From Candidatus Solibacter usitatus (GTDB lineage: Bacteria > Acidobacteriota > Terriglobia > Bryobacterales > Bryobacteraceae), in contig JACPVQ010000044.1 in assembly GCA_016191645.1 (NCBI GenBank), forward strand, positions 1,371 through 65,370: DNA of 64,000 nucleotides, in the 5' to 3' direction. A program made the position numbers and the translations under genes. Below, in pieces: positions 23,234-44,015 of the stretch; position 1 is the first letter of the stretch; each line of letters starts with the position of its first letter. The notes beneath the pieces were generated by a model. It was not told the origin of the DNA and made no database searches. It saw only the letters and a program-made list of their open reading frames with translations.

Positions 23234-23490
23234 TCCTAATCCCTTCCATGGGACGTGTGCGGACTTGGCCGCAATAGGGCTGACCGGTAGGAACTGGATT
23301 CCGATTCGCGGCAGGGGCCGCGGGCAAACAGCTACTTCAGCCGGCGGAGCAACGCTCCCGTCCACGTACTAGCCGCGACACCCGGAACTAAACGCATGCG
23401 CGTTTTCCGCGGCGGGCTCAAAACGCCGGCCTAAAACCTTTTTCAAAATCCTTTTCCAAACTACCCGGAACAACCCGCCACGCCTTTTTT

Positions 23491-27023: not shown

Positions 27024-27033
27024 GCGTCGCGCT

Positions 27034-29348: not shown

Positions 29349-31196
29349 ATGAGGCTCTGTAAGCTTTTCCTTACCGCTGCCGCCATTGCCGGGCTAGCGT
29401 CGGTTTGCGCCGGCCAGGAGAAGACGGTCTCCATTGGCGATTGCCGCTTCGCTAACGATCCGGCGGAATTCCTGAATAAGTCCGCGCTCATTCGCGGCAG
29501 GATCGATGCCAACACCAGGAAGCTCGACTTGCGAGGCGCGCGGGCCGTGGCGGCCGACACGATCCCCCGTCGAAACTTCATCGACGACGAGATTTTGGGC
29601 AAGCTGACCCGCAAAGGTGTAAAGTCAGCGCCGTTGTCGACCGACGAAGAGTTCTTTCGCCGCATCTACCTCGATCTCACCGGGCGTATTCCGGCCCCTG
29701 CCGACATCCGGGCTTTTCTTGCCGATTCCAGCGTGGACAAGCGCGACGCAGTGATCGACAAACTGCTCAACTCGGCGGAGTTCACCGACCGCTGGACGAT
29801 GTGGATGGGCGACTTGCTGCAGAACACTTCCACTCTGATCAATGCCGCCGCCAATCGCAATGCCGACGGCCGCAACGCGTTTCACAGTTACATTCGCGAC
29901 GCCGTGAGCCACAACAGGCCGTTTACGGCAATTGCCCGCGAAGTGATTGCCGGGAAGGGCAACAATTACGATGCGGCGGCGGGCGCGGCGAATTTCCCCA
30001 TGGGCGCGAGCACGGCGATGGGTCCGATGCAGGACACCTACGATACGATGCTGGTGCGCACCGTCACAACATTTCTCGGCCTGGGAAATTACGATTGCCT
30101 GCTCTGTCACGACGGACGCCGGCATTTAAATCAGGTCAACGTGTGGGGAACCGCGCAGACGCGCTGGGATGCGCAAAGCATGGCCGCCTTCTTTTCGCGC
30201 ATGGCGCTGACGGCGTCGAATCCACGCGGAAGCTTCATGGTGTCGGACATGTCCGACGGCTGGTACGACCTCAACACGAATTCGGGAAACCGGCCGGAGC
30301 GGAAGCCCGTGGCAGGAATGGCGGTGGTCTCGCCCGTCTATCGGGAAACCGGAGCAACGCCAAGAGATGGCGATTGGCGCGGCGCCTTCGCCGACAATCT
30401 GGTGCGCGATCCGATGTTCGCGCGCAATCTGGCGAACCGGCTGTGGAAACAGATGTTCGGATTGGCCGTGGCGGATCCCGTGGACGCGTTGGATCCGGCG
30501 CGCCTGGATCCGGCCAATCCTCCGGAAGAACCGTGGGAGTTTCAGGCTACTCATCCGGAGTTGCTGGACAAGCTGGCGGCGGAACTGGCGAAACAGAATT
30601 TTCAGCTGCGGGAGTTTCTGAAAACGCTGGTGCAATCGTCGGCCTATCAATTGAGCTCGCGCTATGACGGAGAGTGGAGCAGCGATTACGTTCCCTTGTT
30701 CGCGCGGCATTTTGCGCGCCGCATGGAAGGCGAGGAAGTTCACGACGCCGTCGCGGCTGCCACCGGCGCGCCGGGCAGTTACACCGTGGCGGGATTTCCG
30801 TCGCGCGTGGAATGGGCGATGCAGCTTCCGGAACCGGTGGAACCCGCCAGCGACGCTACGGCGCGAAACTTCATGAACACCTTCCTGCGTGGCGATCGCG
30901 ACACGCAGGAGCGAAGCCAGGCGGGGTCCATTCAGCAGTCGCTCTACCTGATGAACGATTCGTTTGTGTCGACCCGCGTGAAAACCGCGCGCTCGCCAAA
31001 ACTTGCCGCCATGGCGCAGATGACGGACGCGGCGATGGTGGAGGAAGCATACCTGACGTTTCTCTCGCGCATGCCAACTGAGGCGGAGCGGGCAACGGCG
31101 ATGACTTTCCTGGCGAAGACCGCGGATCGCAGGGCTGCCGCTGAAGACCTAGCCTGGATGTGCATCAACAAGATCGAATTTCTTTTCAGCTACTGA
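29349..31196 (+). CDS. DUF1549/DUF1553 (PSCyt2/PSD1) domain protein
   Basis: Signal peptide. FFRRIYLDLTGRIPAPADIRAFLAD is the DUF1549 hallmark. The C-terminal half is DUF1553-like, ending in NKIEFLFSY. Confidence 0.85.
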   Translation: MRLCKLFLTAAAIAGLASVCAGQEKTVSIGDCRFANDPAEFLNKSALIRGRIDANTRKLDLRGARAVAADTIPRRNFIDDEILGKLTRKGVKSAPLSTDEEFFRRIYLDLTGRIPAPADIRAFLADSSVDKRDAVIDKLLNSAEFTDRWTMWMGDLLQNTSTLINAAANRNADGRNAFHSYIRDAVSHNRPFTAIAREVIAGKGNNYDAAAGAANFPMGASTAMGPMQDTYDTMLVRTVTTFLGLGNYDCLLCHDGRRHLNQVNVWGTAQTRWDAQSMAAFFSRMALTASNPRGSFMVSDMSDGWYDLNTNSGNRPERKPVAGMAVVSPVYRETGATPRDGDWRGAFADNLVRDPMFARNLANRLWKQMFGLAVADPVDALDPARLDPANPPEEPWEFQATHPELLDKLAAELAKQNFQLREFLKTLVQSSAYQLSSRYDGEWSSDYVPLFARHFARRMEGEEVHDAVAAATGAPGSYTVAGFPSRVEWAMQLPEPVEPASDATARNFMNTFLRGDRDTQERSQAGSIQQSLYLMNDSFVSTRVKTARSPKLAAMAQMTDAAMVEEAYLTFLSRMPTEAERATAMTFLAKTADRRAAAEDLAWMCINKIEFLFSY

Positions 31197-31208
31197 GAAA
31201 GGGGCATC

Positions 31209-32561
31209 ATGAAAAATCGTTTCGGATTCGATGAAAGCAAAGTTGCCGGCGCCCCTTACTGGAGCAAGCCGCAACTGGGGCGCAGGTTGTTTTTCCGCCA
31301 TGTCGGCTCGGCCGTGGGCGGATACATGCTGATGCCCGGTGCGCCGATGGAGACCGTGGCGCGCGCGGCGGTGACGACGAAGAACACGGCGAAGAATGTG
31401 ATCTTCTTCATGCTGCAAGGCGCGCCCAGCCATACCGACACGTTCGATTTGAAACCGGCGAACGGAATGCCCGTGGCGCAGTTCAAGCCGACCGAGTACA
31501 ACGGCTTACTGTTTCCGCAAGGGCTCATGCCGAAGCTCGCCGGACAGATTGACTCGCTGGCCCTGGTCCGGTCCGTTCGCGCGTGGGCGAACGTCCACGG
31601 GCTGATGCAGACGTGGGTGCAACTCGGCCGCAACCCGGCGACGCCGCTGGCGAAACTGAGCCCGCATATCGGGTCCGTGGTCTCCGTGGAGTTGGCCAAG
31701 AAAGGCTCGGTGCTGCCGACCTTCATCGCACTGAATGGAACTCCGCGTGTGGCTTCGGGATTTCTTCCGGTGGCCAACGCGCCCTTTATGCTGACCGCCG
31801 GCGCCGGATTCCCGAACACAAAGCATCCCGATGGAAGCGACCGTTTTGCATCCCGCATGAGTCTGCTGCGGGACGCGGAAACGGCGGGTGCGCCGGGAGC
31901 GAGCCTTGGCGATTCGCCGGATGAGATTGCCGATTGGAAGCTGCGCTCGCAAATGCTGATGTACAACAGCAGCGTCGATCAGATCTTCAATTTGAATGCC
32001 TCCGAGCGCGCGCAGTATGGAACGTCGGCGCTGGGCGATGCCTGCCTGACGGCACGCAACATATTGAAGGCGAACATGGGCACGCGATTCATTCAAATCA
32101 CTTATGGAGGCTGGGACCATCACAACAACCTTTACGCGCGGCTGACGCCGATGGCCACGGAGTTCGACAACGGGCTGAGCCGGTTAATAACGGACTTGAA
32201 GACCGAAGGGCTGTTCGACGAGACGTTAATCGTCGCCCAGGGCGAGTTTGGCCGCACGCCCGGGTTGAATGGCGCAGGCGGGCGCGATCACTTCGCACAG
32301 CAGACGGCGCTGTTTGCCGGGGCGCGGATTCGCGGCGGGCGCGCCATTGGCGCGACAGATCCGTTGGGGGCGACGATTGTTGAGCCGGGCTGGTCGCGAG
32401 ACCGCGAAGTGCGCGCGGAAGATATCGAAGCGACTATCTACTCCGCGTTAGGCATCGATTGGACGACGCTGCGCAGGGACAGCCGGTTCGGCCGCGGATT
32501 CGAGTACGTGCCCGAATCCAGCCAGGATCGCTACGGCCCCGTTCATGAATTGTGGGGCTGA
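31209..32561 (+). CDS. DUF1501 (sulfatase-fold) protein with a Tat-type signal
   Basis: GRRLFFRHVGSAVGG Tat-like signal. The DUF1501 motifs GAPSHTDTFD, GGWDHHNN, GEFGRTP and GRDH are present. Confidence 0.9.
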   Translation: MKNRFGFDESKVAGAPYWSKPQLGRRLFFRHVGSAVGGYMLMPGAPMETVARAAVTTKNTAKNVIFFMLQGAPSHTDTFDLKPANGMPVAQFKPTEYNGLLFPQGLMPKLAGQIDSLALVRSVRAWANVHGLMQTWVQLGRNPATPLAKLSPHIGSVVSVELAKKGSVLPTFIALNGTPRVASGFLPVANAPFMLTAGAGFPNTKHPDGSDRFASRMSLLRDAETAGAPGASLGDSPDEIADWKLRSQMLMYNSSVDQIFNLNASERAQYGTSALGDACLTARNILKANMGTRFIQITYGGWDHHNNLYARLTPMATEFDNGLSRLITDLKTEGLFDETLIVAQGEFGRTPGLNGAGGRDHFAQQTALFAGARIRGGRAIGATDPLGATIVEPGWSRDREVRAEDIEATIYSALGIDWTTLRRDSRFGRGFEYVPESSQDRYGPVHELWG

Positions 32562-32775: not shown

Positions 32776-33627
32776 TTAGGAAGATTTCAGGTAGGATTTC
32801 GCCAGGATCCACAACTTGCGCGGCTTCGACACCGACAAGCGACGCCCCAACACTTCGTAGTTCTCCGATTCGATGAGCAGCAGCAACCGGCTGTAGATCT
32901 CGATGATCGCCCGCAGCATCGCGCGGCCCGACGGTTCCACTAAATCCAACAGCGGCATCGCGTCGCGGTAATACTGCTTCGCGCGCGCGGCTTCGAATTG
33001 CAGCAGGTTTCGCAGCGGCTCCGATACGCGCTGCCCTGCGAGATCCGATTCCGCAACGGAGAACCGCGTCAAATCTTCTGCCGGAAGGTAGAGGCGCCCA
33101 TTCCCGAAATCCTCCGAAACATCGCGCAGAATATTGGTAAGTTGAAAAGCGACACCGCATTTTTCCGCAAGCGGGAGAGCATCCGGCGAGCGGAACCCGA
33201 GAATGTGCACCACCGTCAGTCCCACCACGGACGCGACGCGGTAGCAGTACGCATAGAGTTCTTCGAACGTGTTCATGCGGCGAAATGCGATATCGTAGGC
33301 GACTCCGTCGATCATTTGATGCAGATACTCATGCGGGATCTTGTAGCGCGTCACGGTATCGTGGAGCGCGGGCCAAACGGGATGCGAGTCGAGACCGCCG
33401 CCCTGCAAGGCCGATTGCATTTGCACGCGCCAGTCTTCGAAAACCTCCATTGTCTTCTCGCCGGGTTCGTCGCTGAGATCGTCGCAGACGCGCATGAAGG
33501 CGTAGACCGCGCACATGGAACGCCGCCGCCGCGCGTCCAGCAACAAAAAGGAAGGATAAAAATTCTTTGCGCGACGGCGCGCCACATCAGCGCACCAGGC
33601 GTAGGAGACTTCCACGGGCCTGTTCAT
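32776..33627 (-). CDS. hpnD: Presqualene diphosphate synthase HpnD (squalene/phytoene synthase family)
   Basis: NFYPSFLLL...AVYAFMRVCDDLSDE and a second Asp-rich region. It is the second of two SQS/PSY genes, with a 4-nt overlap with hpnC. Confidence 0.8.
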   Translation of the reverse strand: MNRPVEVSYAWCADVARRRAKNFYPSFLLLDARRRRSMCAVYAFMRVCDDLSDEPGEKTMEVFEDWRVQMQSALQGGGLDSHPVWPALHDTVTRYKIPHEYLHQMIDGVAYDIAFRRMNTFEELYAYCYRVASVVGLTVVHILGFRSPDALPLAEKCGVAFQLTNILRDVSEDFGNGRLYLPAEDLTRFSVAESDLAGQRVSEPLRNLLQFEAARAKQYYRDAMPLLDLVEPSGRAMLRAIIEIYSRLLLLIESENYEVLGRRLSVSKPRKLWILAKSYLKSS

Positions 33628-34565
33628 GCCGCTTTCCGGAAAGCTACGCGGAGCAGCGTGCGCAGCAATAACGCCACTCGCTCCGGCTTGGAGATGGCCG
33701 GACGTTTTGCCAGTACGTTGTAATCAAGCCGTTCGATCTTCTGCAGCACTTTCAGTCCACCGCGGCTGAACAGATCGAGATCCACTGCCAGACGGCGGTC
33801 CACCAGGGCGGGCAGCGCCAGCCCCTCGACAAACAACTTGCGGGCAACGTCCGTGCATTCCACCATCACCGCGCGGAATGCCGTCGAGTTCTTCCGCGCG
33901 AACAGATCCTCCACCGTGCAACCGTGACGATCCATCACATCCAGCGGAATGTAGACGCGATCTTTTTCCAGATCCACAGCCACGTCCTGCCAGAAATTGG
34001 CAAGCTGCAGCGCTGTGCAAGTAGCGTCGCTGAGGCGCTGGCGTTCGGCGTCCCGGTATCCGCATAAATAGAGGACCAGACGCCCCACCGGATTTGCGGA
34101 GTAACGGCAGTAGGCGAACACATCCTCCCAACTCCGGTAGCGCGTGACGGTCTGATCCTGTTCGAAGGCCGTAATTAAATCCGCGAAAGGTTGGACGGGA
34201 AGCCTGTGCCGTGCGGCGGTGTCCCGCAGTGCCACAAAAACAGGATGGGAGGCTTTGCCAGCGAACATCGCTTCCAATTCACCGCGCCACCATTGCAGCA
34301 GACGCAGGCTCTCCGCCGTGTCGCCGATCTCGTCGCCAAGATCGTCGCTCCAGCGGCAAAATGCGTAGACATTGAAAAAATCCTGGTGCAGCCGCTTCGG
34401 CAGCAAAAAGCTGACGACGTGAAAATTTTCGTAGTGGCTGGTGGCAAGCCAGCGCGTGTAGGCTGAGGCTTCCGGCGCGGACCAGCTCCACGAGGCCGCT
34501 TCGGAATGAAAGACAAAATCCCGCGGGGAAAGAAATCGCTGGCGGACGGCGCGATCCGCGTGCAT
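33624..34565 (-). CDS. hpnC: Hydroxysqualene synthase HpnC (squalene synthase family)
   Basis: SHYENFHVVSFLLPKRL...NVYAFCRWSDDLGDE is the typical HpnC N-terminal signature. It precedes hpnD as in characterised hpnCD(E) loci. Confidence 0.8.
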   Translation of the reverse strand: MHADRAVRQRFLSPRDFVFHSEAASWSWSAPEASAYTRWLATSHYENFHVVSFLLPKRLHQDFFNVYAFCRWSDDLGDEIGDTAESLRLLQWWRGELEAMFAGKASHPVFVALRDTAARHRLPVQPFADLITAFEQDQTVTRYRSWEDVFAYCRYSANPVGRLVLYLCGYRDAERQRLSDATCTALQLANFWQDVAVDLEKDRVYIPLDVMDRHGCTVEDLFARKNSTAFRAVMVECTDVARKLFVEGLALPALVDRRLAVDLDLFSRGGLKVLQKIERLDYNVLAKRPAISKPERVALLLRTLLRVAFRKAA

Positions 34566-34570
34566 GGGGA

Positions 34571-35611
34571 CTAAGGGATGATGGCCGTCTTCATGTGACC
34601 GTTATGGCTCATGAGGTGACGGAGCACTTCCAGCAAATTGGTGAGCGGCTCTTCGCGGTTCACAAGATCGCGCGCCGTGATATCGAGACGGCTCACGGTG
34701 TCGAGCGCCTTGCGGATATACGCGGGCGTGTGATGGAAGGTCGCCTTGCAGGTGATCTCCGAATAGTGCAGCAGGCTGGTGTCCAAGGCGACGGCGCTGT
34801 CGTTGGGGCAGCCGCCGAAGAAGTTGACGGTTCCACCCTTGCGGACCATGCGCGCGGCAAGCTGCCACGTTTCCGGCGTGCCGACCGCTTCAATGGCGAT
34901 ATCGACGCCGCGCTTGCCGGTCAGCTCGCGGACGCGCGCCGCATGATCGTAGGAATCGGCCGTGCACAGCAGATCGGTTGCGCCCATTTTCGCGGCCTTG
35001 TCCAACTGCGATTTGCGGCGGCCAATGGCGATGACACGGCAGCCGAATACGCGCGCCAGGCGCACGAACATCAGGCCAATGGGTCCCAGGCCGATGACGG
35101 CGATGGTTTCCACGCCTTCCAGACCGCACTCTTCCAATCCGCGCATGACGCAAGCCAGCGGCTCTATCAGCGCCGCGTCCTGATAGCTGATGTGCGCCGG
35201 AATCTCGTATAAATTCTTCTGTACAATGCGCCCCGGGATGCGGATGTATTCGGCGTAAGCCCCGTTATTGAATAAAAGATCCTCGCACAGGTTCTCCTTA
35301 TTGCGCGCGCAATAGAAGCAGGCTCCACAAGGAGCGGAGTTTGCCGAAACCACGCGCTGGCCCACATGGAACTTGCGGACGTTTTCTCCAACCGAAACAA
35401 TGTCACCGGCCAACTCGTGGCCGAACAAGGCGGGCGGAACAATCATGCGCGCGTGATAGCCGCGTTGAAAAACTTTCACATCGGTCCCACAGGTGAGGGC
35501 GGCGCGAACGCGTACTAATACGTCCTCCGGTCCAACTTGGGGAACGGCTACCGGCTCAATCTGCAGACTTTCTCTGCCGTACAGCACAGCGGCCATCATC
35601 TGTTGTTTCAC
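34571..35611 (-). CDS. Zinc-dependent MDR-family alcohol/polyol dehydrogenase (ADH-1)
   Basis: Catalytic zinc ligands are present (LTCGTD, GHELAG). Structural zinc cluster CGACFYCARNKENLC. Rossmann motif VIGLGPIG. The start overlaps the ADH-2 stop by 4 nt. Confidence 0.85.
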   Translation of the reverse strand: MKQQMMAAVLYGRESLQIEPVAVPQVGPEDVLVRVRAALTCGTDVKVFQRGYHARMIVPPALFGHELAGDIVSVGENVRKFHVGQRVVSANSAPCGACFYCARNKENLCEDLLFNNGAYAEYIRIPGRIVQKNLYEIPAHISYQDAALIEPLACVMRGLEECGLEGVETIAVIGLGPIGLMFVRLARVFGCRVIAIGRRKSQLDKAAKMGATDLLCTADSYDHAARVRELTGKRGVDIAIEAVGTPETWQLAARMVRKGGTVNFFGGCPNDSAVALDTSLLHYSEITCKATFHHTPAYIRKALDTVSRLDITARDLVNREEPLTNLLEVLRHLMSHNGHMKTAIIP

Positions 35612-36702
35612 TTTGTCGTCCTCTGGGGCTGAACAATTATTTTCAACGATTTGGAGTCAGGATGCAAAGCCTTGTCCATCCCGGACCGGATCTCGTCGAG
35701 CGGAAGGCGGTGGGAAACGAGGTCCTCCACCGGCAAATCCCCGCTAAAAACCAGTCTCGCGGACTCGGCCTGCAAGTCCACGTCGGCGCTGTAGGCGCCA
35801 AAAAGAGTTCGCTCTCCCACACAGATGTCCGCACCGGACACTTCGATTCTTTCTTTGTGCGAGGTTTGTGCAAATAACAGTATGCGGCTTCCAGGCCTGC
35901 TGGCGCGAACCGCCTGCTCCACAATCCCCGGCGCGGAAGCACAAACAAAAACTACGTCGGCCCCGCGTCCATCGGTTAACGCGGCAGCCTCGCGGGCCAA
36001 ATCGACGGCCTGCGGATCAAAGCTTGCCGCCGCTCCAAAGCGCACGGATAACTCCCTGCGCGTTGCCATTCCATCGGTAGTCAACATTCTTGCGCCGGTG
36101 CGAGCCACCAGCATCGTGAAGATCAATCCGATGGGGCCCTGGCCCAACACCAACGCCAATTCGTCTCGCTTCGGCGCGGCGATTTCCACGGCCTTCAGGC
36201 ACGTGTTGACGGGCTCCACGAAGCACGCGCGGTCGAAGGAAACTCCGTCGGGAATCTTCTCCACGCCGCGCCGCACAATCCAATCCATGACGCGGATATA
36301 CTGCGCAAAGCCGCCGCCCGCGGGCTCGTAACCGGCGGTGATGCCGACCTTCTTATAAACAGGGCACTGCGCGTACAGGTTCTTGCGGCAGTAAAAACAT
36401 TCTCCGCACGGGATATGGTGGAACGCGATCACCCTATCGCCAGGCGCAAACTTCGTGACGCCCTCGCCCACGGCAACCACGACCCCGGCCGTTTCGTGTC
36501 CGTAAATGCGCGGCGGCGGCAGCAGGTTGTGCTCCACCTTCTTCAGGTCGGTATGGCAGATGCCGCAGCTTTCCACGCGCACCAACAGTTCGCCGCGGCC
36601 GATGCCCGGCGTGGGGACACTTTCGACCGCAACGATGCTGTCGCCTTTGTAGACGGCTGCCCGCATCGTGATGGGAGGTTGAATACTAGAAGCGACTTGC
36701 AA
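35608..36702 (-). CDS. Zinc-dependent MDR-family alcohol/polyol dehydrogenase (ADH-2)
   Basis: CGICHTD and GHETAG, structural zinc cluster CGECFYCRKNLYAQC, and Rossmann motif VLGQGPIG. TTG start at 36702 is preceded by AGGAG-N6, which lies inside the 3' end of hpnG. Confidence 0.85.
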   Translation of the reverse strand: MQVASSIQPPITMRAAVYKGDSIVAVESVPTPGIGRGELLVRVESCGICHTDLKKVEHNLLPPPRIYGHETAGVVVAVGEGVTKFAPGDRVIAFHHIPCGECFYCRKNLYAQCPVYKKVGITAGYEPAGGGFAQYIRVMDWIVRRGVEKIPDGVSFDRACFVEPVNTCLKAVEIAAPKRDELALVLGQGPIGLIFTMLVARTGARMLTTDGMATRRELSVRFGAAASFDPQAVDLAREAAALTDGRGADVVFVCASAPGIVEQAVRASRPGSRILLFAQTSHKERIEVSGADICVGERTLFGAYSADVDLQAESARLVFSGDLPVEDLVSHRLPLDEIRSGMDKALHPDSKSLKIIVQPQRTTK

Positions 36703-37369
36703 GGTACTCTCCTAGTTTCTCAGATGCAATGCCCGCGTTGCGGTGCAGGCGGATCAAAGCTGGGATGCGCGAAAAAGGACGCATCACGGCTGCCTTGGCA
36801 ATGGCGCTTCGGTCAAAGCGGCCGGCGTCGTCCCGATAACAGTTAAAGTCCAGGGGAAGCCCGGCATCGGCATCGTCACTCACCGCGCGAATGCAGAAGA
36901 ACGGCAGCGTGTGAGCAGCGGCACTACGGGCAACTCCGGCCGCTTCCATTTCCACGGCGGAGGCTCCGGTCCCGCGCAGGGTTCTCTTTTCCGCCGCCGT
37001 TACCGCGACTCGATTCTGACTGACGATGGTGGAGCCCGCATTCGATACCGTGGCGAATTTCTCGCCCGAAACGGAATCGAGCACTTCCCCCGCTTCCACA
37101 ACATCGCCGACGCGCAGGGCCGGGTCCAGGCCGCCGCACGTTCCCGTGCTCACCACCTGATCCACAGGCATTGCGCGAAGTACCGTCTCCAAGGCCTCTG
37201 CCGCCAACCGCGGACCTGGGCCATTGGCCACGAAGACCACTCTCCGGCCGTTGAGGGTTCCCTCGGCGGCGAATCGCATGGGCCAGCCGAGTTGACGCAC
37301 GCCCGTGGTACGCCGCAGGACGCCGTCAAACTCGAACTTTTCAGCAGCTACCATTACGATCGCATTCAC
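36686..37369 (-). CDS. hpnG: Hopanoid-associated phosphorylase/nucleosidase HpnG (PNP/UDP family)
   Basis: 227 aa with VSTGTCGGLDPALRVGDVV and AVEMEAAGVA, the PNP_UDP_1-fold motifs. It sits between hpnA and the ADH pair. Confidence 0.8.
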   Translation of the reverse strand: MNAIVMVAAEKFEFDGVLRRTTGVRQLGWPMRFAAEGTLNGRRVVFVANGPGPRLAAEALETVLRAMPVDQVVSTGTCGGLDPALRVGDVVEAGEVLDSVSGEKFATVSNAGSTIVSQNRVAVTAAEKRTLRGTGASAVEMEAAGVARSAAAHTLPFFCIRAVSDDADAGLPLDFNCYRDDAGRFDRSAIAKAAVMRPFSRIPALIRLHRNAGIASEKLGEYLASRF

Positions 37370-38344
37370 TTAGCAATAACCGTTTGCGCGGAACCAGTCG
37401 ACGGCTCGCTGCAAAGCCCCCTCCACGGGGGCCGGCTCAAATCCCAAATCCCGCTTCGCCTTTTCAGACGAAACGAACATCTTCTTTCGCGCCATGCGCA
37501 CGCCTTCCAGCGGCACGCGCGGCTCGCTCCCTGTCAGGGATGCCCAACCGGTACTGCAGACTCCGGCCGCGTAGGCCACCGCATACGGAATCCTGACCTG
37601 AGGCGCGGGTATTCCGCTGATTTGCCCCAGACCTTCCAGGATCTCTCGTAAGGTCATGTTGCGGCAACCTAAAATATAGCGCTCCCCAGGCTTTCCCCGT
37701 TCCGCCGCCAGCAAGTGACCCTTTGCCGTATCCCGCACGTCCACCAGATTCAGTCCCGTATCGACGTAGGCGGGCATCTGCCGTTTGAGAAAATCGACAA
37801 TGATCTTCCCCGTCGGCGTCGGCTTGAAATCGTGATCGCCCACAGGGGCGGTAGGATTCACAATGACCACCGGAAAGCCGTCCCGCGCGAATTCGAGGGC
37901 GGTCCGTTCCGCCTGGAACTTCGATCGCTTGTAGTGGCCGCTCATCTGCTGAATGGTCACCGGCATTGATTCGTCTCCGATTCCACCATCCGGGATGCCG
38001 ATGCATCCCACCGTGCTGGTATAGACGAACCGTTCCACTCCGGCCTGGCGGGCGGCCTGTAGGATATTGCGCGTGCCACCGGCGTTGGAGTCGTAAAGGT
38101 CCTGTGGATTCTTCGACCACAAGCGGTAATCGGCGGCGACATGATAGACGGTGCCACAACCGGCGACGGCATGTTGGAGCGAAGAGGGGTCACGCAGATC
38201 TCCGCAAACGGTTTCGGCCTCGAGTTCGCGCAGACGGCTGGACGCGCGCACCAGACAGCGTACGCGCTCTCCGCGCTCCACGAGTTGTCTTGCCACATGC
38301 CAGCCAATAAATCCTGTCGCTCCTGTAATCAGTACCGGCTTCAC
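37370..38344 (-). CDS. hpnA: Hopanoid-associated NAD-dependent sugar epimerase/dehydratase HpnA
   Basis: VLITGATGFIGWHV Rossmann motif. VAADYRLW and YKRSK (YxxxK) are present. It lies directly downstream of shc. Confidence 0.85.
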   Translation of the reverse strand: MKPVLITGATGFIGWHVARQLVERGERVRCLVRASSRLRELEAETVCGDLRDPSSLQHAVAGCGTVYHVAADYRLWSKNPQDLYDSNAGGTRNILQAARQAGVERFVYTSTVGCIGIPDGGIGDESMPVTIQQMSGHYKRSKFQAERTALEFARDGFPVVIVNPTAPVGDHDFKPTPTGKIIVDFLKRQMPAYVDTGLNLVDVRDTAKGHLLAAERGKPGERYILGCRNMTLREILEGLGQISGIPAPQVRIPYAVAYAAGVCSTGWASLTGSEPRVPLEGVRMARKKMFVSSEKAKRDLGFEPAPVEGALQRAVDWFRANGYC

Positions 38345-38347: not shown

Positions 38348-40270
38348 TCAGGCGTATTTCTCATTCAGAAATGCCGAAAGCGCAAGCGCGGGAAACGAAT
38401 TTCGATATAAGTGATACGTCAAATAAAAGACGCGCGGGAATCCGGTCCCCGTTGCCAGCGTCTCATCCCAAGTCCCGTCGCTCTTCTGGGTTTCGATCAA
38501 ATACTCGATGCCATCGCGGACGCTTTCGCTGATCTGATCGCCGCTGGCCAGCAAGCCTAGCACGGCCCAGGCGGTTTGCGAAGGCGTGCTGGGAGCCGCA
38601 ACAAACGAATTGCGGTCATAGCTTTCGCAGCTTTCTCCCCATCCGCCGTCGGCGTTCTGGATGGCCCGCAGCCATTCTCCGGCGCGCAGGATATGCGCCT
38701 CGCGGTCGCTTTCCCCGGCGGCTCGCAATCCTCTTAACGCAAGAAAAGTTCCATAGATGTAATCCACGCCCCAGCGGCCATACCAACTGCTATCCGCCCC
38801 CTGCGTCTTGCGTAGGAACGCCGCGCCGCGCTGGATGGCGGGGTGCGAAGGCGGAGTTCCATGCGCCACCAGCGCTTCCATCACCCGCCCGGTAATGTCG
38901 GGGCAGGTGGGATCGAGCATGGCGTTATGGTCGGCGAAGGGAACGTCGGCCAGGAATCCCCAATTGTTATCCACGTCGAAGGCTGCCCATCCGCCGTCTT
39001 TGGATTGCATGGCCAACAGCCAGTTCACGGCGCGGTCGATGGCTTTCTGCTGGTCCGGAATACTGCTCGCGCGCGCATGGCGCATGGCAAGCAAAACCAT
39101 GGCCGTATCGTCGATGTCGGGATAAAACTCGTTGGCGTGTTCGAAATACCAGCCGGATGGTTCCACGCCGGGCCGTTTCACGCACCAATCGCCGGGGCGG
39201 CGGATCTCTTTCCGGAGCAGCCAGTCCGCCGTAGATTGGAGCGCATCGGGCGGCGCCATGTTCGATTCGCCCACCGAAAATGCCGCAATGGCGGTGTCCC
39301 AAACCACGGAGAAACAAGGTTGGAAGAAGAAGCCGGCATCGCCGCCGCGTTCCGTCATCAGGCGGTCGAATTGGCGTTGCGCCTCCAGGTGATCGGCATG
39401 ATCGCGGGGAACACCCATCACATCCAGCGCCATGATGAGGTACATCATCGGAGGATAGATGGCAGCGAGGCCGTCGGAGTGGCGCGTATGCTCCAGAGAC
39501 CAATCGAGAGCCTTTCGCATCGCCATGCGGCGCACACCCTTCGGGCCGTGTTTTTCCCACAGTTTCAGCAATCCATCGACGCGCAGGAAGAAGTTCTTCC
39601 AGGAAAAAAAGCCCTTATCGTTGGGGAAGGCGAAGCTGACGCCCGCGGCGTGTAATTCATCAATGTGGAAACCCTCAGGCACGGGTTTCATGGGACGCGA
39701 CGCGTGCACAATGGACAGCGGAATGACAATGGCGCGCGTCCAGGAAGACATTTCGTAGATCAGCTTACCGGCCAACATCACCTCGGGTGGCACCGATGGC
39801 ACGTGCTCCCGCGGGTAGAGGCCGAACAGACTCAGGTTGATCTTGACGTAGCTGTTGGCGCGCTGCAACCCGCCCATCGCCAGAATGCGGTCGCGCAGCC
39901 GGACCATGCGCGCGTCGCCGCAATCGACGCCCGCGAGTTTCAGCGAAAAGTAAGCCTTCACGCTGGCGCTGATCTCCGATGGACCCTGTTGATAGATATT
40001 GAAGCCCCCATCGGGGAGTTGGCGCGCCAGAATCGACCGCACTGCTTTGTCGATCAAGGGCCGGGTGGGTGGATTCCAGGTTTTCCCCTCTGGCGGGTGC
40101 ATCCAAAGCTGCAAAAGGATAAAGTCGGATTCCAGAGTGCTGTCGGCAGTGAGGTCGGCGCACCAAAAACCTTCCTGCGAACGCATCTTGAGCAAGGCCT
40201 CCACTGCTCGCCGCGCCGATTGTTCGGCGTGCACCAGCAACCCATCGGAAATTTGGAGCCCGGGCATCAT
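38348..40270 (-). CDS. shc: Squalene-hopene cyclase
   Basis: 640 aa. DxDD protonation motif (PDIDDTAMV). Multiple QW repeats (QNADGGWGE, QSKDGGWAAF, QKSDGTWDE). Confidence 0.95.
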   Translation of the reverse strand: MMPGLQISDGLLVHAEQSARRAVEALLKMRSQEGFWCADLTADSTLESDFILLQLWMHPPEGKTWNPPTRPLIDKAVRSILARQLPDGGFNIYQQGPSEISASVKAYFSLKLAGVDCGDARMVRLRDRILAMGGLQRANSYVKINLSLFGLYPREHVPSVPPEVMLAGKLIYEMSSWTRAIVIPLSIVHASRPMKPVPEGFHIDELHAAGVSFAFPNDKGFFSWKNFFLRVDGLLKLWEKHGPKGVRRMAMRKALDWSLEHTRHSDGLAAIYPPMMYLIMALDVMGVPRDHADHLEAQRQFDRLMTERGGDAGFFFQPCFSVVWDTAIAAFSVGESNMAPPDALQSTADWLLRKEIRRPGDWCVKRPGVEPSGWYFEHANEFYPDIDDTAMVLLAMRHARASSIPDQQKAIDRAVNWLLAMQSKDGGWAAFDVDNNWGFLADVPFADHNAMLDPTCPDITGRVMEALVAHGTPPSHPAIQRGAAFLRKTQGADSSWYGRWGVDYIYGTFLALRGLRAAGESDREAHILRAGEWLRAIQNADGGWGESCESYDRNSFVAAPSTPSQTAWAVLGLLASGDQISESVRDGIEYLIETQKSDGTWDETLATGTGFPRVFYLTYHLYRNSFPALALSAFLNEKYA

Positions 40271-41262
40271 AATGTGATGGAAGTGAGACGCGACGCGTGC
40301 GGAACCAGTTCCGCCGGCAGCGAAAACCGCACGTCCTCTTCCTTAATCTCCACTTGTTCCACGCTTCCAAAGCCGTGATCGGATTGCAGAGAAGCAATCA
40401 AATCCTGCACCAGGTGTTCGGGGGCCGAAGCGCCCGCCGTTACGGCAATCGTCTGAACGCCCATCAGCCATTCGGATTTCACTTCGCCGGCGTCATCCAC
40501 CAGATAAGACCGGACGCCCGCCAATTCACAGACCTCCACCAAACGCCGTGAGTTCGAACTGTTGCGCGAACCAACCACCAGCAACGCCTGGCATTGCGGG
40601 GCAATCGCCTTCACCGCCAGTTGCCGATTTTCGGTGGCATAGCAGATATCCTGAGCCGGCGGTCCCTCGATCAAGGGAAAGCGCTGCTTGAGGCGGGCGA
40701 TGATCCCCGTCGTCTCGTCCAGGCTGAGCGTCGTCTGGGTAAGATAGACCACGCGCGAGGGGTCCGGCAATTGGAGGATGTCGACGTCCGCTTCGGTCTC
40801 CACAAGAATGGAAACGGTAGGCTCTTCGCCCAGCGTCCCGATGACCTCGTCATGGTCCTTATGGCCGATCAGAACAATGGTGTAGCCGCGCTGGGCGTAC
40901 CGTTTGGCCTCCAAATGGACCTTGGTGACCAGAGGGCATGTTGCGTCGATCACCGCCAATCTGCGGGCCACGGCCTCCTGCCGCACCGCCGGAGATACTC
41001 CATGGGCGCTGAAAATGACTCGCGCCCCTTCCGGCACTTCGGAAAGCTCTTCCACAAAGATCGCTCCAGCCCCGCGCAATTCCTCTACCACGTGGCGGTT
41101 GTGGACTATCTCTTTGCGCACGTAAATGGGCGATCCGAAGACATCCAAGGCGATCTTGACCACATCGATTGCCCGCACCACGCCGGCACAAAAGCCGCGT
41201 GGCGTAAGCAATAGGATATTTCTACCAGTGTCACCCACACTGGTCGTGCGGTAAGAAGACAT
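40267..41262 (-). CDS. ispH: 4-hydroxy-3-methylbut-2-enyl diphosphate reductase
   Basis: LLLTPRGFCAGVVRAIDVV, with conserved Cys and His motifs (FSAHGVSP, DATCPLVTKVH, NSSNSRRL). The stop overlaps the shc start by 4 nt. Confidence 0.93.
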   Translation of the reverse strand: MSSYRTTSVGDTGRNILLLTPRGFCAGVVRAIDVVKIALDVFGSPIYVRKEIVHNRHVVEELRGAGAIFVEELSEVPEGARVIFSAHGVSPAVRQEAVARRLAVIDATCPLVTKVHLEAKRYAQRGYTIVLIGHKDHDEVIGTLGEEPTVSILVETEADVDILQLPDPSRVVYLTQTTLSLDETTGIIARLKQRFPLIEGPPAQDICYATENRQLAVKAIAPQCQALLVVGSRNSSNSRRLVEVCELAGVRSYLVDDAGEVKSEWLMGVQTIAVTAGASAPEHLVQDLIASLQSDHGFGSVEQVEIKEEDVRFSLPAELVPHASRLTSITL

Positions 41263-41400
41263 AACGTCTTTTGATTATAGCAGCAGGGTCGCCGCTTTTT
41301 GGCCAATCTGACGCTCACCTGGAGTCACCCTATAAAGGTCCTAGGGCCCTTCGCCGATAAGTGGGTGTAGTTTATTTTTCGATAAGGACGGAGTCTGACC

Positions 41401-43980
41401 GTGTTCTGGGCCTTGACAATAGCACTGGGTGTGATCTTCGCAGCCGTGCTGTACAAGTTCGCGGTACCCCCAAAAAAGAGTGAGCCTGAGGAGGAGAAGG
41501 CGGAAGACAGCGCCATTCCCGCCGGCGCGCTGTTCGAGGATGCGCCCCTCGGCTATCAGTTGGTGGACAAGGTCGGAACCATCCTCAAAGTAAACCGGAA
41601 GGAATTGTCGGCCCGGCAAATGCTCCTTTCGGACATGATTGGCCGGCCCTGTTGGGATTTTGTCCCGCAGGAGGACCAGCAACGGGTGCGGGAAGAAATC
41701 CTCAGAAAACTCGCCGGGCAAATAGAGCTGGTCCCCACCCGGCGAAGGCAATTGGGTCCCCGCGGATCGGTCATTACAGCGGAGGTAACGGAAACCATTC
41801 TCCGCGGCAAGAACGGAAAGCTGCTGGGGATGTTGATCGCCTCCGTGGACATCACGGAGCGGCAGAGAGACCAGGAAAGCGTGTTCCGTGCCACGACGGA
41901 ATTGAACGCCCTTTTCCAGGCGATGCCTGACTTGCTCATGCGCATCGATTCGTTTGGGCGCGTGTTGGACGCCAAGGCCGGTCAACTCGCGGAGTCCTAC
42001 GAGAAGCCCGAACAGCTGATTGGAAAGATCTTTCAGGAGACAGTGTCCGCTGAGGAAGGGCTCAAGATCTTCCAGGCGATTCAGCGCGTGAAGAAAATCC
42101 ACGCCATGGTCATGATTGAGCTGCACATGACCGTCAAGGACTCGCAGGAAATCTACGAAGCGCGTTTCTGTCCCAATTACCGCGAAGAGATGATCGTCAT
42201 CATCCGGCGCATCACGGAACGACGGATGTCGGAAGAGAAGTTGCACCAATACGCGCAGGAACTGGAAGCGAAGAACGAAGAGCTGGGCAGCGCACTGTTG
42301 AATGCCCGCGAAGCGACGGAGATGAAGAGCCGCTTCCTGGCCAACATGAGCCACGAGATCCGCACTCCTATGAACGGAATCCTCGGCATGGTCGATTTCC
42401 TGCTGGGCACTCCGCTCACCAATGAGCAGCGTGAATACGCCGTTGCGGTGAAGCAATCCGGCGACGCCCTGCTCACCCTGATCAACGACATTCTCGACAT
42501 CTCCAAGATCGAGGCCGGTAAGCTGCGGCTGGAAAGAATTCCGTTTGATCTGGCAATGACCGTGGAGGAGATTTCCTCAATCTGCGCCATCCGCGCCCGC
42601 GCCAAGGGCTTGGTTTTTACCAGCACGGCGACGGAAAACACTCCATCCTATGTGGTGGGCGACCCCGGGCGTCTGCGCCAGGTCTTGAACAACCTGATCG
42701 GGAACGCCATCAAGTTCACGGAGAAAGGCAAAGTCAGCGTATACACCGAAGTGGTGAGCGAAAACGAGACCACGGCGACGCTGCGCTTTATCGTGCAGGA
42801 CACGGGAATCGGCATTTCGCCGGAGGGTAAGGAAAAACTGTTTCACAGTTTCGTGCAGGGCGACAACTCCACGACGCGAAAATACGGCGGAACGGGGTTG
42901 GGGCTTGCCATCAGCAAACAGTTGGTGGAAATGATGGGGGGAGAGATCGGGTTCACCAGCGAAAAGAATCGCGGCAGCTCGTTCTTCTTCACCGTCGTGT
43001 TTGAGCGCGCCCCGGCCGTGGTGGCCTTTGAGGACGATACGACGCCCGAGATCCGCGCCGCCAAAGCGTTGGAGGGTACGCGCGTCCTTCTTCTCACTTC
43101 GCACACCAATGCTTCTTCCTCCATGAAGCAGTTCCTGGACGGCTGGCAATGCAGCACGCAGCACGTCGACGATGCGTCGGAGCTGAGCACCGCGCTGCGC
43201 AAGGCCGTGAACCGCGCCACGCCGTTCCGGCTCGCTTTAATCGATCTCGATTTGCATGGCGTCAACGCCACTGCCATCGCTACGTCGTTGAAGTACGATT
43301 TATTGCTGCGCGACACCATTCTCATTGGAATGACCGCCGTGCCCATCCGCGGCGACGGTCTTCAATTGCGGGAAGCCGGATTTGCCGGCTACATGAACAA
43401 GCCGATCCGAGCCTCGCAGTTGTATCACACCATGGTGGCCGCCGTTCGCGGCAAAGAAAAAGCTCCGCTCGAGGAGGCCGCTCCCATGGTCACCCGCCAC
43501 ACCCTGGCGGAGACCCAAAAGAGTGCCGAAGCGGGTAAACCGTCCATTCTGTTGGCGGAAGACAACGTCATCAATCAACGCATCGCCATCCGCCTGTTGC
43601 AGAAACTCGGTCTCACGGCGGAAGTGGTGAACAACGGCCGTGAAGCGGTAGGCGCATTGGAACGCGCGGCCTACGATCTGGTCTTGATGGATTGCCAGAT
43701 GCCCGAATTGGACGGCTTTGAGGCGACTGCCGAAATTCGCCGCCGCGAACAAGTCGAAGGCAAGAACAAGCACACCCTCATCTGCGCGCTGACAGCGAAC
43801 GCCATGGTCGGCGATCGTGAGAAATGCATCGATTCCGGCATGGACGATTACATCAGCAAACCTGTGGCCCTAACCGATCTTCAGGCCGCCATTCAGCGGC
43901 TGCTGTATAAAGATGGAGTTCCCTTGGAACAGGACGCTGCTCCTGCCTCGCCATCTCCGGATGCCGCATTGACGGCATAG
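41401..43980 (+). CDS. Hybrid sensor histidine kinase/response regulator with PAS domains
   Basis: N-terminal TM, two PAS-like regions, H-box [16 protein letters not shown], ATPase G-boxes (DTGIGI, GGTGLGL), and two receiver domains (the second contains [13 protein letters not shown]). Confidence 0.9.
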
Positions 43981-44015
43981 GCTTCACGCGCCGTACCTCA
44001 TGCGACAATGTTGGC

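What the first reader, a model, noticed from the sequence alone, without database searches (positions are those of the whole stretch)
34571..36702. Two zinc-ADH genes embedded in the hopanoid operon directly behind hpnG: candidates for the unassigned ribosylhopane reductase step
Both proteins are complete MDR-type dehydrogenases with catalytic and structural zinc sites and a Rossmann GxGxxG. They are translationally coupled into the operon. The ADH-2 TTG start and its AGGAG lie inside hpnG. ADH-2 and ADH-1 overlap by 4 nt. ADH-1 ends 5 nt before hpnC. In the established side-chain pathway, HpnH makes adenosylhopane and HpnG removes adenine to give ribosylhopane. The open-chain aldehyde form of ribosylhopane must then be reduced by an NAD(P)H-dependent enzyme to give bacteriohopanetetrol. 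To my knowledge that enzyme has not been genetically assigned. Polyol/aldehyde-active MDR dehydrogenases placed immediately after hpnG fit that missing activity. The second enzyme might act on a related intermediate or form a heteromer.
Basis: partly seen in the sequence, partly recalled or inferred. Interest (0 to 1): 0.7.

Follow-up and report, generated by a model that had tools for sequence, protein, structure and literature searches.

The report
Two zinc dehydrogenases in hopanoid operon
Two complete zinc alcohol-dehydrogenase genes sit inside an acidobacterial hopanoid-lipid operon; the pairing was published in 2017 as genes of unknown function, and they remain credible but untested candidates for the missing enzyme that turns ribosylhopane into bacteriohopanetetrol (BHT).

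Summary
The window comes from a Bryobacterales (Acidobacteriota) genome assembled from a metagenome. It carries ispH-shc-hpnA-hpnG-ADH2-ADH1-hpnC-hpnD on the minus strand. Both ADHs are intact zinc MDR enzymes, and their reading frames overlap or abut the neighbouring genes.

The arrangement is not chance. In 160 related loci, ADH2-ADH1 adjacency held in 132/132 and ADH1-hpnC in 141/144. The hpnG-ADH2 link held in 110/124, so the pair is tied more tightly to hpnC than to hpnG.

It is not new as an observation. Sinninghe Damsté et al. 2017 listed these genes as ug1 and ug2, function "not established".

The premise holds: papers from 2025 and 2026 still name no enzyme for ribosylhopane-to-BHT.

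In favour:
- ADH1 has a conserved NADP-type cofactor motif and ADH2 a conserved NAD-type motif.
- The nearest relatives are sugar and polyol dehydrogenases, which suits the ribose-derived side chain.

Against:
- Hopanoid linkage was seen only in Acidobacteriota.
- The same tandem pair occurs in Armatimonadota with no hopanoid neighbours.
- Chloracidobacterium makes BHT derivatives without ug2.

Function cannot be settled in silico. I put the specific reductase assignment at about 0.35 and a role on the C35 side chain at about 0.6.

The parts
40267..41262 (-). ispH (HMBPP reductase), first gene of the cluster
   Evidence: NF002189 456 bits, above its cut-off; PF02401
38348..40270 (-). shc, squalene-hopene cyclase
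   Evidence: TIGR01507 602 bits against cut-off 431
37370..38344 (-). hpnA, hopanoid-associated SDR 'sugar epimerase'. It is a rival candidate reductase.
   Evidence: TIGR03466 479 bits against cut-off 368. Proposed for ribosylhopane-to-BHT in PMC5462960.
36686..37369 (-). hpnG-like nucleosidase/phosphorylase
   Evidence: The best NCBIfam hit is TIGR03468 HpnG, but at 125 bits it is below the cut-off of 187. PF01048. Same position in 110/124 loci.
36709..36713 (-). AGGAG Shine-Dalgarno for ADH-2, inside hpnG
   Evidence: Read from the sequence. An SD-like motif precedes the upstream start in 41/67 orthologous loci.
35608..36702 (-). ADH-2 (= ug1): NAD-type zinc MDR dehydrogenase, 364 aa, TTG start
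   Evidence: PF08240 + PF00107. C49/H69/E70/E163, four structural Cys and GxGxxG are conserved in all 82 aligned sequences; D210 in 78/79 acidobacterial ones. AF2 pLDDT 85 with an MDR fold.
34571..35611 (-). ADH-1 (= ug2): NADP-type zinc MDR dehydrogenase, 346 aa, GTG start with GTGA overlap onto the ADH-2 stop
   Evidence: PF08240 + PF00107. C41/H65/E66/E150, four structural Cys and GxGxxG are conserved in all 88 aligned sequences; G197-R198-R199 in 70, 83 and 84 of 85 acidobacterial ones. It aligns to the A-R of the NADP-dependent ketose reductase 1E3J. AF2 pLDDT 92.7.
33624..34565 (-). hpnC (hydroxysqualene synthase), 5 nt after the ADH-1 stop
   Evidence: TIGR03464 343 bits against cut-off 250. 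Directly downstream of ADH-1 in 141/144 loci.
32776..33627 (-). hpnD (presqualene diphosphate synthase), last gene of the cluster
   Evidence: TIGR03465 249 bits, just under cut-off 278.6; PF00494

Best explanation
The two genes are the acidobacterial hopanoid-cluster genes already published as ug1 (ADH-2) and ug2 (ADH-1). They form a co-translated tandem of one NAD-type and one NADP-type zinc MDR dehydrogenase. This two-gene module also exists free-standing in other phyla, where its relatives belong to sugar and polyol metabolism. In Terriglobia it became fixed between hpnG and hpnC.

The most likely mechanism (inferred, not shown) is redox chemistry on the ribose-derived C5 side chain of C35 hopanoids.
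- HpnH makes adenosylhopane and HpnG removes adenine to give ribosylhopane.
- ADH-1, using NADPH and its catalytic zinc, reduces the open-chain C35 aldehyde to the primary alcohol of BHT.
- ADH-2, using NAD+, catalyses a second step on the same side chain. This would be either oxidation of the lactol to ribonylhopane or oxidation of a secondary hydroxyl.

This would be a dedicated, lineage-specific solution. Other BHT producers must use a different enzyme.

Shown: gene integrity, residues, cofactor-type motifs, synteny and family relationships. Inferred: substrate, direction and the division of labour between the two enzymes.
For: - **Synteny.** ADH2-ADH1 were adjacent in 73/73 genome loci and 59/59 metagenome loci. 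ADH1-hpnC held in 76/77 and 65/67. hpnG-ADH2 held in 71/72 and 39/52.
- **Tight spacing is conserved.** ADH2-ADH1 gaps are mostly -4, -1 or 0 nt. ADH1-hpnC gaps are typically -4 to +11 nt.
- **Strong constraint.** The ADHs are 60-85% identical across the phylum. The adjacent hpnG-like gene is only 32-53% identical.
- **Catalytic residues intact.** All catalytic and structural zinc ligands are invariant.
- **Cofactor dichotomy.** ADH-1 R198 and R199 are conserved in 83 and 84 of 85 sequences. They align to the A-R of NADP(H)-dependent ketose reductase 1E3J. ADH-2 D210 is conserved in 78/79. My own knowledge: Bodlenner et al. 2015 reported NADPH-dependent reduction of ribosylhopane in a cell-free system.
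- **Family.** The closest solved structures are 4EJ6, threonine dehydrogenases, ketose reductase and sorbitol dehydrogenase. Relatives at 44-47% identity sit in sugar and polyol clusters with FGGY kinases, Dak, RpiB, DeoC and sugar ABC transporters.
- **The step is open.** No enzyme is assigned.
- **Not tied to squalene synthesis.** ug2 is present in all SD1 and SD3 hopanoid-producing Acidobacteria. This includes strains that lack hpnC and hpnE (PMC5462960).
Against: - No functional data exist.
- Hopanoid linkage was found only in Acidobacteriota. All 80 genome hits were acidobacterial or carried the acidobacterial cluster under another bin label.
- Ten of ten sampled loci of the nearest outside relatives have no hopanoid gene within 10 kb. 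Four of these carry the same tandem module: L095 and L096 from Armatimonadota genomes, L093 and L099 from unlabelled contigs.
- C. thermophilum lacks ug2 but makes BHT derivatives. My own knowledge: the model hopanoid clusters of R. palustris, Z. mobilis, B. cenocepacia and S. coelicolor contain no MDR gene. The step can therefore be done without these enzymes.
- Linkage is tighter to hpnC-D-E than to hpnG. Examples are L141, L157, L160, L164, L176, L177 and Terriglobus roseus L087.
- Polyol-dehydrogenase-type MDRs usually act on secondary alcohols and ketones rather than aldehydes.
- One reduction does not explain why two enzymes with opposite cofactor types are kept together.
- HpnA, an SDR in the same operon, is an equally placed candidate.
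Confidence: 0.35

Rival explanations
1. Side-chain tailoring after BHT is made. The NAD-type enzyme oxidises a hydroxyl of the C32-C35 polyol, or the lactol of ribosylhopane. The NADP-type enzyme re-reduces the carbonyl. The net result is an epimer, a keto-hopanoid, a lactone (ribonylhopane) or an aldose-polyol-ketose conversion. The actual ribosylhopane reductase would then be HpnA or a housekeeping enzyme.
For: - The NAD-type plus NADP-type pairing is conserved wherever the module occurs, including Armatimonadota.
- The pair is translationally coupled in L093, L096 and most acidobacterial loci.
- The family's typical chemistry is oxidation of secondary alcohols on polyols.
- Ribonylhopane has been reported in R. 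palustris mutants and Nitrosomonas (PMC4263297).
- My own knowledge: two-dehydrogenase epimerisations with split cofactor use are established, for example IolG/IolW for inositols and HpsO/HpsP for DHPS. HpsP appears among the fold hits.
Against: - No keto, epimeric or lactone BHP has been reported from Acidobacteria. The 2017 study used Rohmer degradation, which erases side-chain detail.
- The idea explains the pair but not its universal retention in all SD1 and SD3 strains.
Confidence: 0.25
2. Ordinary sugar or polyol dehydrogenases with no hopanoid role. They would have been trapped in the operon by history and conserved for an unrelated soluble substrate.
For: - The module occurs without hopanoid neighbours in other phyla, in variable contexts: a sulfotransferase, Gfo/Idh/MocA oxidoreductases and methyltransferases.
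- Single relatives lie in sugar-catabolic clusters.
- JGI annotates them as 'L-iditol 2-dehydrogenase'.
Against: - Adjacency held in 132/132 loci and hpnC linkage in 141/144, across ADH-1 divergence down to about 52% identity.
- Reading frames overlap those of hopanoid genes on both sides.
- The acidobacterial hopanoid-linked ADH-1 sequences form one clade in a rough tree.
- When the cluster fragments, each ADH still stays in a hopanoid sub-cluster.
- No sugar kinase, transporter or regulator accompanies them.
Confidence: 0.1
3. A role in the squalene branch, acting on hydroxysqualene. This is the only alcohol in the HpnD/HpnC/HpnE route.
For: - The most invariant neighbour of the pair is hpnC.
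- In T. roseus, ADH-1 alone heads the ADH1-hpnC-hpnD-hpnE unit with a 4-nt overlap.
Against: - ug2 is retained in strains lacking hpnC and hpnE, and is absent from C. thermophilum, which has the squalene genes.
- My own knowledge: HpnC, HpnD and HpnE alone suffice for squalene synthesis in E. coli (Pan et al. 2015, as summarised).
- Conserved polar residues (T43, D44, K46, H282, Y283, H293, H294) and sugar-enzyme relatives point to a polyhydroxylated substrate, not a C30 hydrocarbon alcohol.
Confidence: 0.07

Closest known systems
ug1 / ug2 of acidobacterial hopanoid clusters (Sinninghe Damsté et al. 2017, Front Microbiol 8:968, PMC5462960)
   Same: - Same genes. ug1 is a 'Zn-dependent alcohol dehydrogenase, ca. 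370 aa' that follows hpnA-hpnG.
- ug2 is a 'Zn-binding alcohol dehydrogenase, ca. 350 aa' that precedes hpnC.
- Both are found in subdivision 1 and 3 Acidobacteria. The window is from a subdivision 3 (Bryobacterales) genome.
   Different: - In the paper the function is 'not established', and HpnA was the gene proposed for ribosylhopane-to-BHT.
- The paper states that SD3 genomes lack ug2 next to cluster A. Here, and in 76/77 mostly Bryobacterales and other Terriglobia genome loci, ug2 sits directly before hpnC.
- The cofactor-type dichotomy and the free-standing module in other phyla were not described there.
Polyol-dehydrogenase / threonine-dehydrogenase branch of zinc MDRs (sorbitol dehydrogenase 1PL6, NADP-ketose reductase 1E3J, Tdh 2DFV, S. 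meliloti 4EJ6)
   Same: - Same fold, with TM-scores of 0.84-0.91.
- Catalytic Cys/His/Glu zinc site, four-Cys structural zinc lobe and GxGxxG.
- ADH-1 shares the NADP-type residues of 1E3J.
   Different: - Only 21-30% identity.
- No NCBIfam equivalog cut-off is reached: tdh scores 142-159 bits against 458, and IolM 139-154 against 450.
- The genomic context is lipid biosynthesis, not sugar catabolism.
The NADPH-dependent ribosylhopane-reducing activity of Methylobacterium organophilum extracts (Bodlenner et al. 2015; cited in PMC12583986)
   Same: It is the reaction proposed here for ADH-1, and ADH-1 has an NADP-type motif.
   Different: - That activity has no gene.
- No hopanoid-linked ADH-1 or ADH-2 orthologue was found outside Acidobacteriota. 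The Methylobacterium enzyme is therefore probably a different protein.
Two-step sugar redox pairs with split cofactor use (aldose reductase + sorbitol dehydrogenase; IolG/IolW; HpsO/HpsP)
   Same: One NAD-type and one NADP-type dehydrogenase are encoded together and act in sequence on a polyol (own knowledge; the motif data are).
   Different: - In those systems the two enzymes usually belong to different superfamilies.
- Here both are MDRs, only 28% identical to each other, and the substrate would be lipid-anchored.

Membership tests
Zinc-dependent medium-chain dehydrogenase/reductase (MDR) superfamily | GroES-like catalytic domain plus Rossmann cofactor domain | tested here: met
   PF08240 and PF00107 are both above their gathering scores in both proteins. 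AF2 models have pLDDT 92.7 and 85.2, with TM-scores of 0.84-0.91 to MDR structures.
Zinc-dependent medium-chain dehydrogenase/reductase (MDR) superfamily | Catalytic zinc ligands (Cys, His, Glu), four-Cys structural zinc site and GxGxxG | tested here: met
   ADH-1 has C41/H65/E66/E150, C95/98/101/109 and G174/176/179. ADH-2 has C49/H69/E70/E163, C99/102/105/113 and G187/189/192. All are invariant in the aligned sequences.
Named NCBIfam equivalogs (L-threonine 3-dehydrogenase, scyllo-inosose 3-dehydrogenase IolM, L-idonate 5-dehydrogenase, Ahr aldehyde reductase) | Score at or above the curated cut-off | tested here: not met
   The best hits are tdh at 142 and 159 bits (cut-off 458), IolM at 139 and 154 (cut-off 450) and Ahr at 55 and 103 (cut-off 470).
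ug1/ug2 hopanoid-cluster ADHs of Acidobacteria (Sinninghe Damsté 2017) | Zn-ADH of about 370 aa after hpnA-hpnG, and Zn-ADH of about 350 aa before hpnC, in SD1/SD3 Acidobacteria | tested here: met
   The proteins are 364 aa and 346 aa, in the order hpnA-hpnG-ADH2-ADH1-hpnC. Taxon is Bryobacterales.
Ribosylhopane reductase (unassigned activity) | Catalyses NADPH-dependent reduction of ribosylhopane to BHT | not testable with these tools
   This needs an enzyme assay or heterologous reconstitution.
Ribosylhopane reductase (unassigned activity) | NADP(H)-type cofactor site | tested here: met
   ADH-1 G197-R198-R199 is conserved (R198 in 83/85, R199 in 84/85) and aligns with T-A-R of the NADP-dependent 1E3J. 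ADH-2 instead has the NAD-type D210. This is a sequence signature only.
Ribosylhopane reductase (unassigned activity) | Co-occurs with hpnH/hpnG across BHT producers in general | tested here: not met
   Hopanoid-linked orthologues were found only in Acidobacteriota. Outside relatives are unlinked in 10/10 loci. C. thermophilum lacks ug2. Whole-genome presence or absence could not be scanned.
HpnG (hopanoid-associated nucleosidase/phosphorylase), for the upstream neighbour | TIGR03468 score at or above cut-off | tested here: inconclusive
   It scores 125.1 bits against a cut-off of 187.1, but this is the best hit. The position after hpnA is conserved in 110/124 loci.

The most novel reading that the evidence does not exclude
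An ancient, translationally coupled NAD-type plus NADP-type MDR tandem was recruited from sugar and polyol metabolism into the hopanoid operon of Terriglobia. There it fills the long-missing step or steps after HpnG. ADH-1 would be the first genetically identified ribosylhopane reductase, making BHT. ADH-2 would set a second oxidation state or stereocentre of the side chain. The pair might work as a heteromer.
Probability: 0.3. Interest if true: 0.7.

Novelty: new member of a known kind. Interest (0 to 1): 0.5.

Why it matters
BHT and its derivatives are the main extended hopanoids and the precursors of the C31-C35 geohopanes used as biomarkers. The step from ribosylhopane to BHT is the one core side-chain reaction with no gene. 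Reviews still draw it as unknown or non-enzymatic.

A dedicated reductase, even a lineage-specific one, would complete the pathway for Acidobacteria, one of the most abundant soil phyla. It would allow full heterologous reconstitution of BHT synthesis. It would also give a sequence marker for the step.

If the pair instead tailors the side chain, by epimerisation or by keto or lactone formation, it could explain unassigned BHP variants in soils and peat.

The value is limited in two ways. The gene association is already published. The enzymes are clearly not the universal solution.

Tried and rejected
- **Genome scan with an 18-sequence alignment (A1).** I repeated it with a closer alignment (A2).
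- **Spread beyond Acidobacteriota.** ADH-2 hits were labelled Rhodospirillales and Rhizomicrobium, and one locus (L024) Acidimicrobiia. I rejected these as evidence of spread. The contigs carry the whole acidobacterial cluster, with most genes 60-75% identical to the window's (hpnG-like and hpnD lower), so they are probably binning errors.
- **Metagenome scan seeded with Armatimonadota-type sequences.** It was meant to sample the free-standing module. It returned 79/80 divergent acidobacterial hopanoid clusters instead. That was useful for synteny but gave only one more free-standing pair, L099.
- **Fold searches against the PDB.** They returned only generic MDR neighbours and no function-specific match.
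- **Promoter and terminator scan of the operon.** It gave nothing above the shuffled expectation.
- **Neighbours of the free-standing modules.** They share no common theme: a sulfotransferase, Gfo/Idh/MocA oxidoreductases and methyltransferases.
- **Literature searches.** Searches for BHT stereoisomer genes and for later papers on these ADHs found nothing beyond the 2017 paper. Liu et al. 2014 is not held. The 2025 co-conservation preprint does not mention these enzymes.
- **First tree script.** It timed out. The tree finally used is a crude identity-distance NJ tree with no support values.
- **Not possible.** I could not check whether the Armatimonadota genomes, or the Bryobacterales chromosome of L062, contain shc, hpnH or hpnG elsewhere.
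Full report
**1. What is in the window.**

The minus strand between 32776 and 41262 carries eight tightly packed genes.
- ispH, 40267-41262
- shc, 38348-40270
- hpnA, 37370-38344
- an hpnG-like gene, 36686-37369
- ADH-2, 35608-36702
- ADH-1, 34571-35611
- hpnC, 33624-34565
- hpnD, 32776-33627

These calls rest on the ORF list and on NCBIfam and Pfam scans.
- AGGAG lies at 36713-36709. The ADH-2 TTG is at 36702, inside hpnG, whose TAG stop is at 36688-36686.
- ADH-2's stop and ADH-1's start overlap as GTGA.
- ADH-1's TAG stop is followed by 5 nt and then the hpnC ATG.

Both ADHs have PF08240 plus PF00107. Both carry the full catalytic zinc site, the four-Cys structural zinc site and GxGxxG. The two are only 28% identical to each other, so they are old paralogues and not a recent duplication.

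The window holds no hpnH and no hpnE. The hpnG call is the weakest: its best NCBIfam hit is HpnG, but at 125 bits it is below the 187-bit cut-off.

Exact protein matches identify the source as a Bryobacterales genome assembled from a metagenome, labelled 'Candidatus Solibacter usitatus'.

**2. The ADH-2 start codon.**

NCBI calls ADH-2 from the internal ATG (M13, 352 aa). That Met is conserved in 81/82 orthologues. However, an in-frame upstream start is present in most loci; it is TTG in 65/81. An SD-like motif precedes this upstream start in 41/67 loci and precedes the ATG in only 3/67.

**3. Is the arrangement more than chance?**

I ran two independent scans.
- A scan of one genome per GTDB species returned 80 loci with ADH-1 identity of 60-85%. 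Almost all are labelled as Acidobacteriota; the one other label, Acidimicrobiia (L024), sits on a contig with the same acidobacterial cluster.
- A metagenome scan returned 80 more loci. Of these, 79 are more divergent acidobacterial clusters, with ADH-1 52-66% identical to the window's in all but one (L170, 75%).

I mapped the window's proteins onto these loci by tblastn and counted only loci with enough flanking sequence.

| Adjacency | Genome loci | Metagenome loci |
|---|---|---|
| ADH2 then ADH1 | 73/73 | 59/59 |
| ADH1 then hpnC (or hpnD) | 76/77 | 65/67 |
| hpnG then ADH2 | 71/72 | 39/52 |

Spacing is conserved. ADH2-ADH1 gaps are mostly -4, -1 or 0 nt, and ADH1-hpnC gaps are typically -4 to +11 nt. 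The ADHs are 60-85% identical across loci, whereas the adjacent hpnG-like gene is only 32-53% identical. The pair is thus a fixed, strongly constrained part of the hopanoid cluster of class Terriglobia.

One correction to the emphasis of the finding. The invariant partner is hpnC, not hpnG.
- In L141, L157, L160, L164, L176 and L177 the pair stays with hpnC-D-E, while hpnA-hpnG are elsewhere or inverted.
- In Terriglobus roseus, ADH-1 alone heads ADH1-hpnC-hpnD-hpnE.

**4. It is already in the literature.**

Sinninghe Damsté et al. 2017 (PMC5462960) describe three clusters.
- Cluster C is hpnA-hpnG-ug1.
- Cluster A is ug2-hpnC-hpnD-hpnE.
- Cluster B, around shc and hpnH, does not contain the ADHs.

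Their Table S1 lists ug1 as a 'Zn-dependent alcohol dehydrogenase (ca. 370 AA)'. It lists ug2 as a 'Zn-binding alcohol dehydrogenase (ca. 350 AA)'. Both have function 'Not established'.

They report that ug2 occurs in all subdivision 1 and 3 Acidobacteria and is absent from Chloracidobacterium thermophilum. For the ribosylhopane-to-BHT step they proposed HpnA, not the ADHs. No later paper in the searchable library takes the ADHs further.

**5. The premise.**

A 2025 Geobiology paper states that the enzyme converting ribosylhopane to BHT 'has not yet been established'. A 2026 review still shows the step as 'predicted to be nonenzymatically transformed'. The gap is real.

**6. What kind of enzymes are they?**

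- *Solved structures.* By sequence, both are closest to 4EJ6 (a Sinorhizobium meliloti enzyme of unknown function). Threonine dehydrogenases, the NADP(H)-dependent ketose reductase 1E3J and sorbitol dehydrogenases follow.
- *Predicted structures.* The AF2 models are confident (pLDDT 92.7 and 85.2). They match the same set with TM-scores of 0.84-0.91 and 21-30% identity.
- *Family models.* No NCBIfam equivalog cut-off is reached.

The cofactor sites differ between the two proteins.
- ADH-1 has V-I-A-I-G197-R198-R199. R198 and R199 are conserved in 83 and 84 of 85 sequences. The motif aligns with the T-A-R of 1E3J, so it is NADP-type.
- ADH-2 has T-D210, conserved in 78/79 sequences, so it is NAD-type.

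Conserved polar residues sit around the active site (T43, D44, K46, H282, Y283, H293, H294). They are shared with the wider sugar-enzyme family. This points to a polyhydroxylated reactive group.

**7. Relatives outside Acidobacteriota.**

A search of 1.8 billion cluster representatives shows a continuum below about 53% identity. I checked the genomic context of representative relatives.
- The 53% cluster is Terriglobus, which is still hopanoid-linked.
- A Ktedonobacterales homologue (47%) stands alone.
- Homologues at 44-47% identity lie in sugar and polyol catabolic clusters. Their neighbours include FGGY kinases, Dak, RpiB and sugar ABC transporters in one case, and DeoC and an aldo-keto reductase in the other.
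- A Verrucomicrobiae homologue (51%) and two further single homologues have no informative neighbours.

Four loci carry the same tandem. These are L093 (unknown organism), L095 and L096 (Armatimonadota genomes) and L099.
- Each has an ADH-2-like gene (49-52%) directly followed by an ADH-1-like gene (41-57%).
- The spacing is again tight (a 1-nt overlap, a 4-nt overlap and an 8-nt gap in the three loci with gene calls). The NAD-type and NADP-type split is the same.
- No hopanoid gene lies within 10 kb.
- The flanking genes vary and share no theme.

A rough NJ tree places all acidobacterial hopanoid-linked ADH-1 sequences in one clade. The free-standing tandem clade lies just outside it. The tree uses identity distances and has no support values.

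The pair is therefore an old two-gene module that was recruited into the hopanoid cluster in one lineage.

**8. Interpretation.**

A Zn-MDR needs an alcohol or a carbonyl. The only oxygenated intermediates made by this operon are the ribose-derived side chain (ribosylhopane, BHT) and hydroxysqualene.

The sugar-enzyme ancestry and the polar active site favour the side chain. So does the retention of ug2 in strains that lack hpnC and hpnE.

The most economical specific model has two parts.
- The NADP-type ADH-1 reduces the C35 aldehyde of open-chain ribosylhopane to give BHT.
- The NAD-type ADH-2 performs a second oxidation, either lactol to ribonylhopane or at a secondary hydroxyl. Ribonylhopane is a known hopanoid.

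My own knowledge: MDR enzymes acting at the anomeric carbon of sugars are known. Examples are archaeal glucose and arabinose 1-dehydrogenases and plant mannitol:mannose 1-oxidoreductase. The chemistry therefore has precedent.

Several points count against the specific assignment.
- C. thermophilum makes BHT derivatives without ug2.
- No hopanoid-linked orthologue was found outside Acidobacteriota.
- The pair tracks hpnC more tightly than hpnG.
- Two enzymes of opposite cofactor type are not explained by one reduction.
- HpnA is an equally placed candidate.

I put the specific reductase model at about 0.35. The broader statement that the pair acts on the C35 side chain is at about 0.6. The tailoring rival (oxidation then re-reduction) is at 0.25, an unrelated sugar role at 0.10 and a squalene-branch role at 0.07.

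**9. Verdict.**

It is another instance of a published association, so novelty is 'new member of a known kind'.

As far as the searchable literature shows, the functional hypothesis is new and is chemically reasonable. It is supported by the NADP-type motif and the polyol-enzyme ancestry. It is limited to one phylum and cannot be tested in silico.

It is worth a bench test, because a four- or five-gene reconstitution would answer it. Interest is 0.5.

Noticed in passing
window 1-64000 (whole window); L001 7237-8346; L087 12992-14377: The window has no hpnH and no hpnE. In about half of the related loci hpnH sits between shc and hpnA. In subdivision-1-type loci hpnE follows hpnD. In this genome both must lie elsewhere.
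   Followed up: partly
L093 3798-5881; L095 8955-11041; L096 8958-11059; L099 about 8793-11047: A tightly spaced or overlapping tandem of an NAD-type and an NADP-type MDR occurs free-standing in two Armatimonadota genomes and in two unlabelled contigs. It is 41-57% identical to the window's pair. Its neighbours are variable and non-hopanoid. Its function is unknown.
   Followed up: partly
window 36666-36702: NCBI's annotation starts ADH-2 at the internal ATG (352 aa). An SD-like motif favours the upstream start in 41/67 loci against 3/67 for the ATG. The deposited gene model is therefore probably 12 codons short.
   Followed up: yes
window 36686-37369 and loci L001-L178: The hpnG-like gene evolves much faster (32-53% identity) than the ADHs on one side (60-85%) and hpnA on the other. 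It also falls below the TIGR03468 cut-off. Acidobacterial HpnG may be missed by the curated model.
   Followed up: partly
window 29349-32561 (+); L087 14519-18003: A DUF1549/DUF1553 protein and a DUF1501 protein converge on hpnD. In Terriglobus roseus a DUF1800 plus DUF1501 pair follows hpnE directly. This may be coincidence, since these families are abundant in the phylum.
   Followed up: no
window 41401-45488 (+); 41341-42456 (-): A hybrid histidine kinase/response regulator and a second histidine kinase are transcribed divergently from ispH. The 371-aa minus-strand ORF that overlaps the first kinase has no family hit and is probably spurious.
   Followed up: no
window 20828-28083 (-): A cell-shape cluster: mreC, mreD, PBP2 (mrdA) and rodA, followed by an RNase E/G family gene.
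   Followed up: no
L001, L003, L024: Metagenome-assembled genomes labelled Rhodospirillales, Rhizomicrobium and Acidimicrobiia carry the complete acidobacterial hopanoid cluster, with most genes 60-75% identical to the window's (hpnG-like and hpnD lower). These are probably binning errors in public assemblies.
   Followed up: partly
loci L005-L084, hpnC starts: Only 6/79 hpnC starts have an SD-like motif, although they lie -4 to +11 nt from the ADH-1 stop. By contrast 59/83 ADH-1 starts have one. hpnC may depend on translational re-initiation after ADH-1.
   Followed up: no
L062 7380-13036 (chromosome OZ242366.1): One complete Bryobacterales chromosome has ispH-ADH2-ADH1-hpnC-hpnD-hpnE with no shc, hpnA or hpnG in between. 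Whether those genes exist elsewhere in that genome would bear directly on the function of the pair.
   Followed up: no
window 15117-17501 (-): A PQQ-dependent dehydrogenase with a C-terminal cytochrome c domain. It is unrelated to the finding.
   Followed up: no
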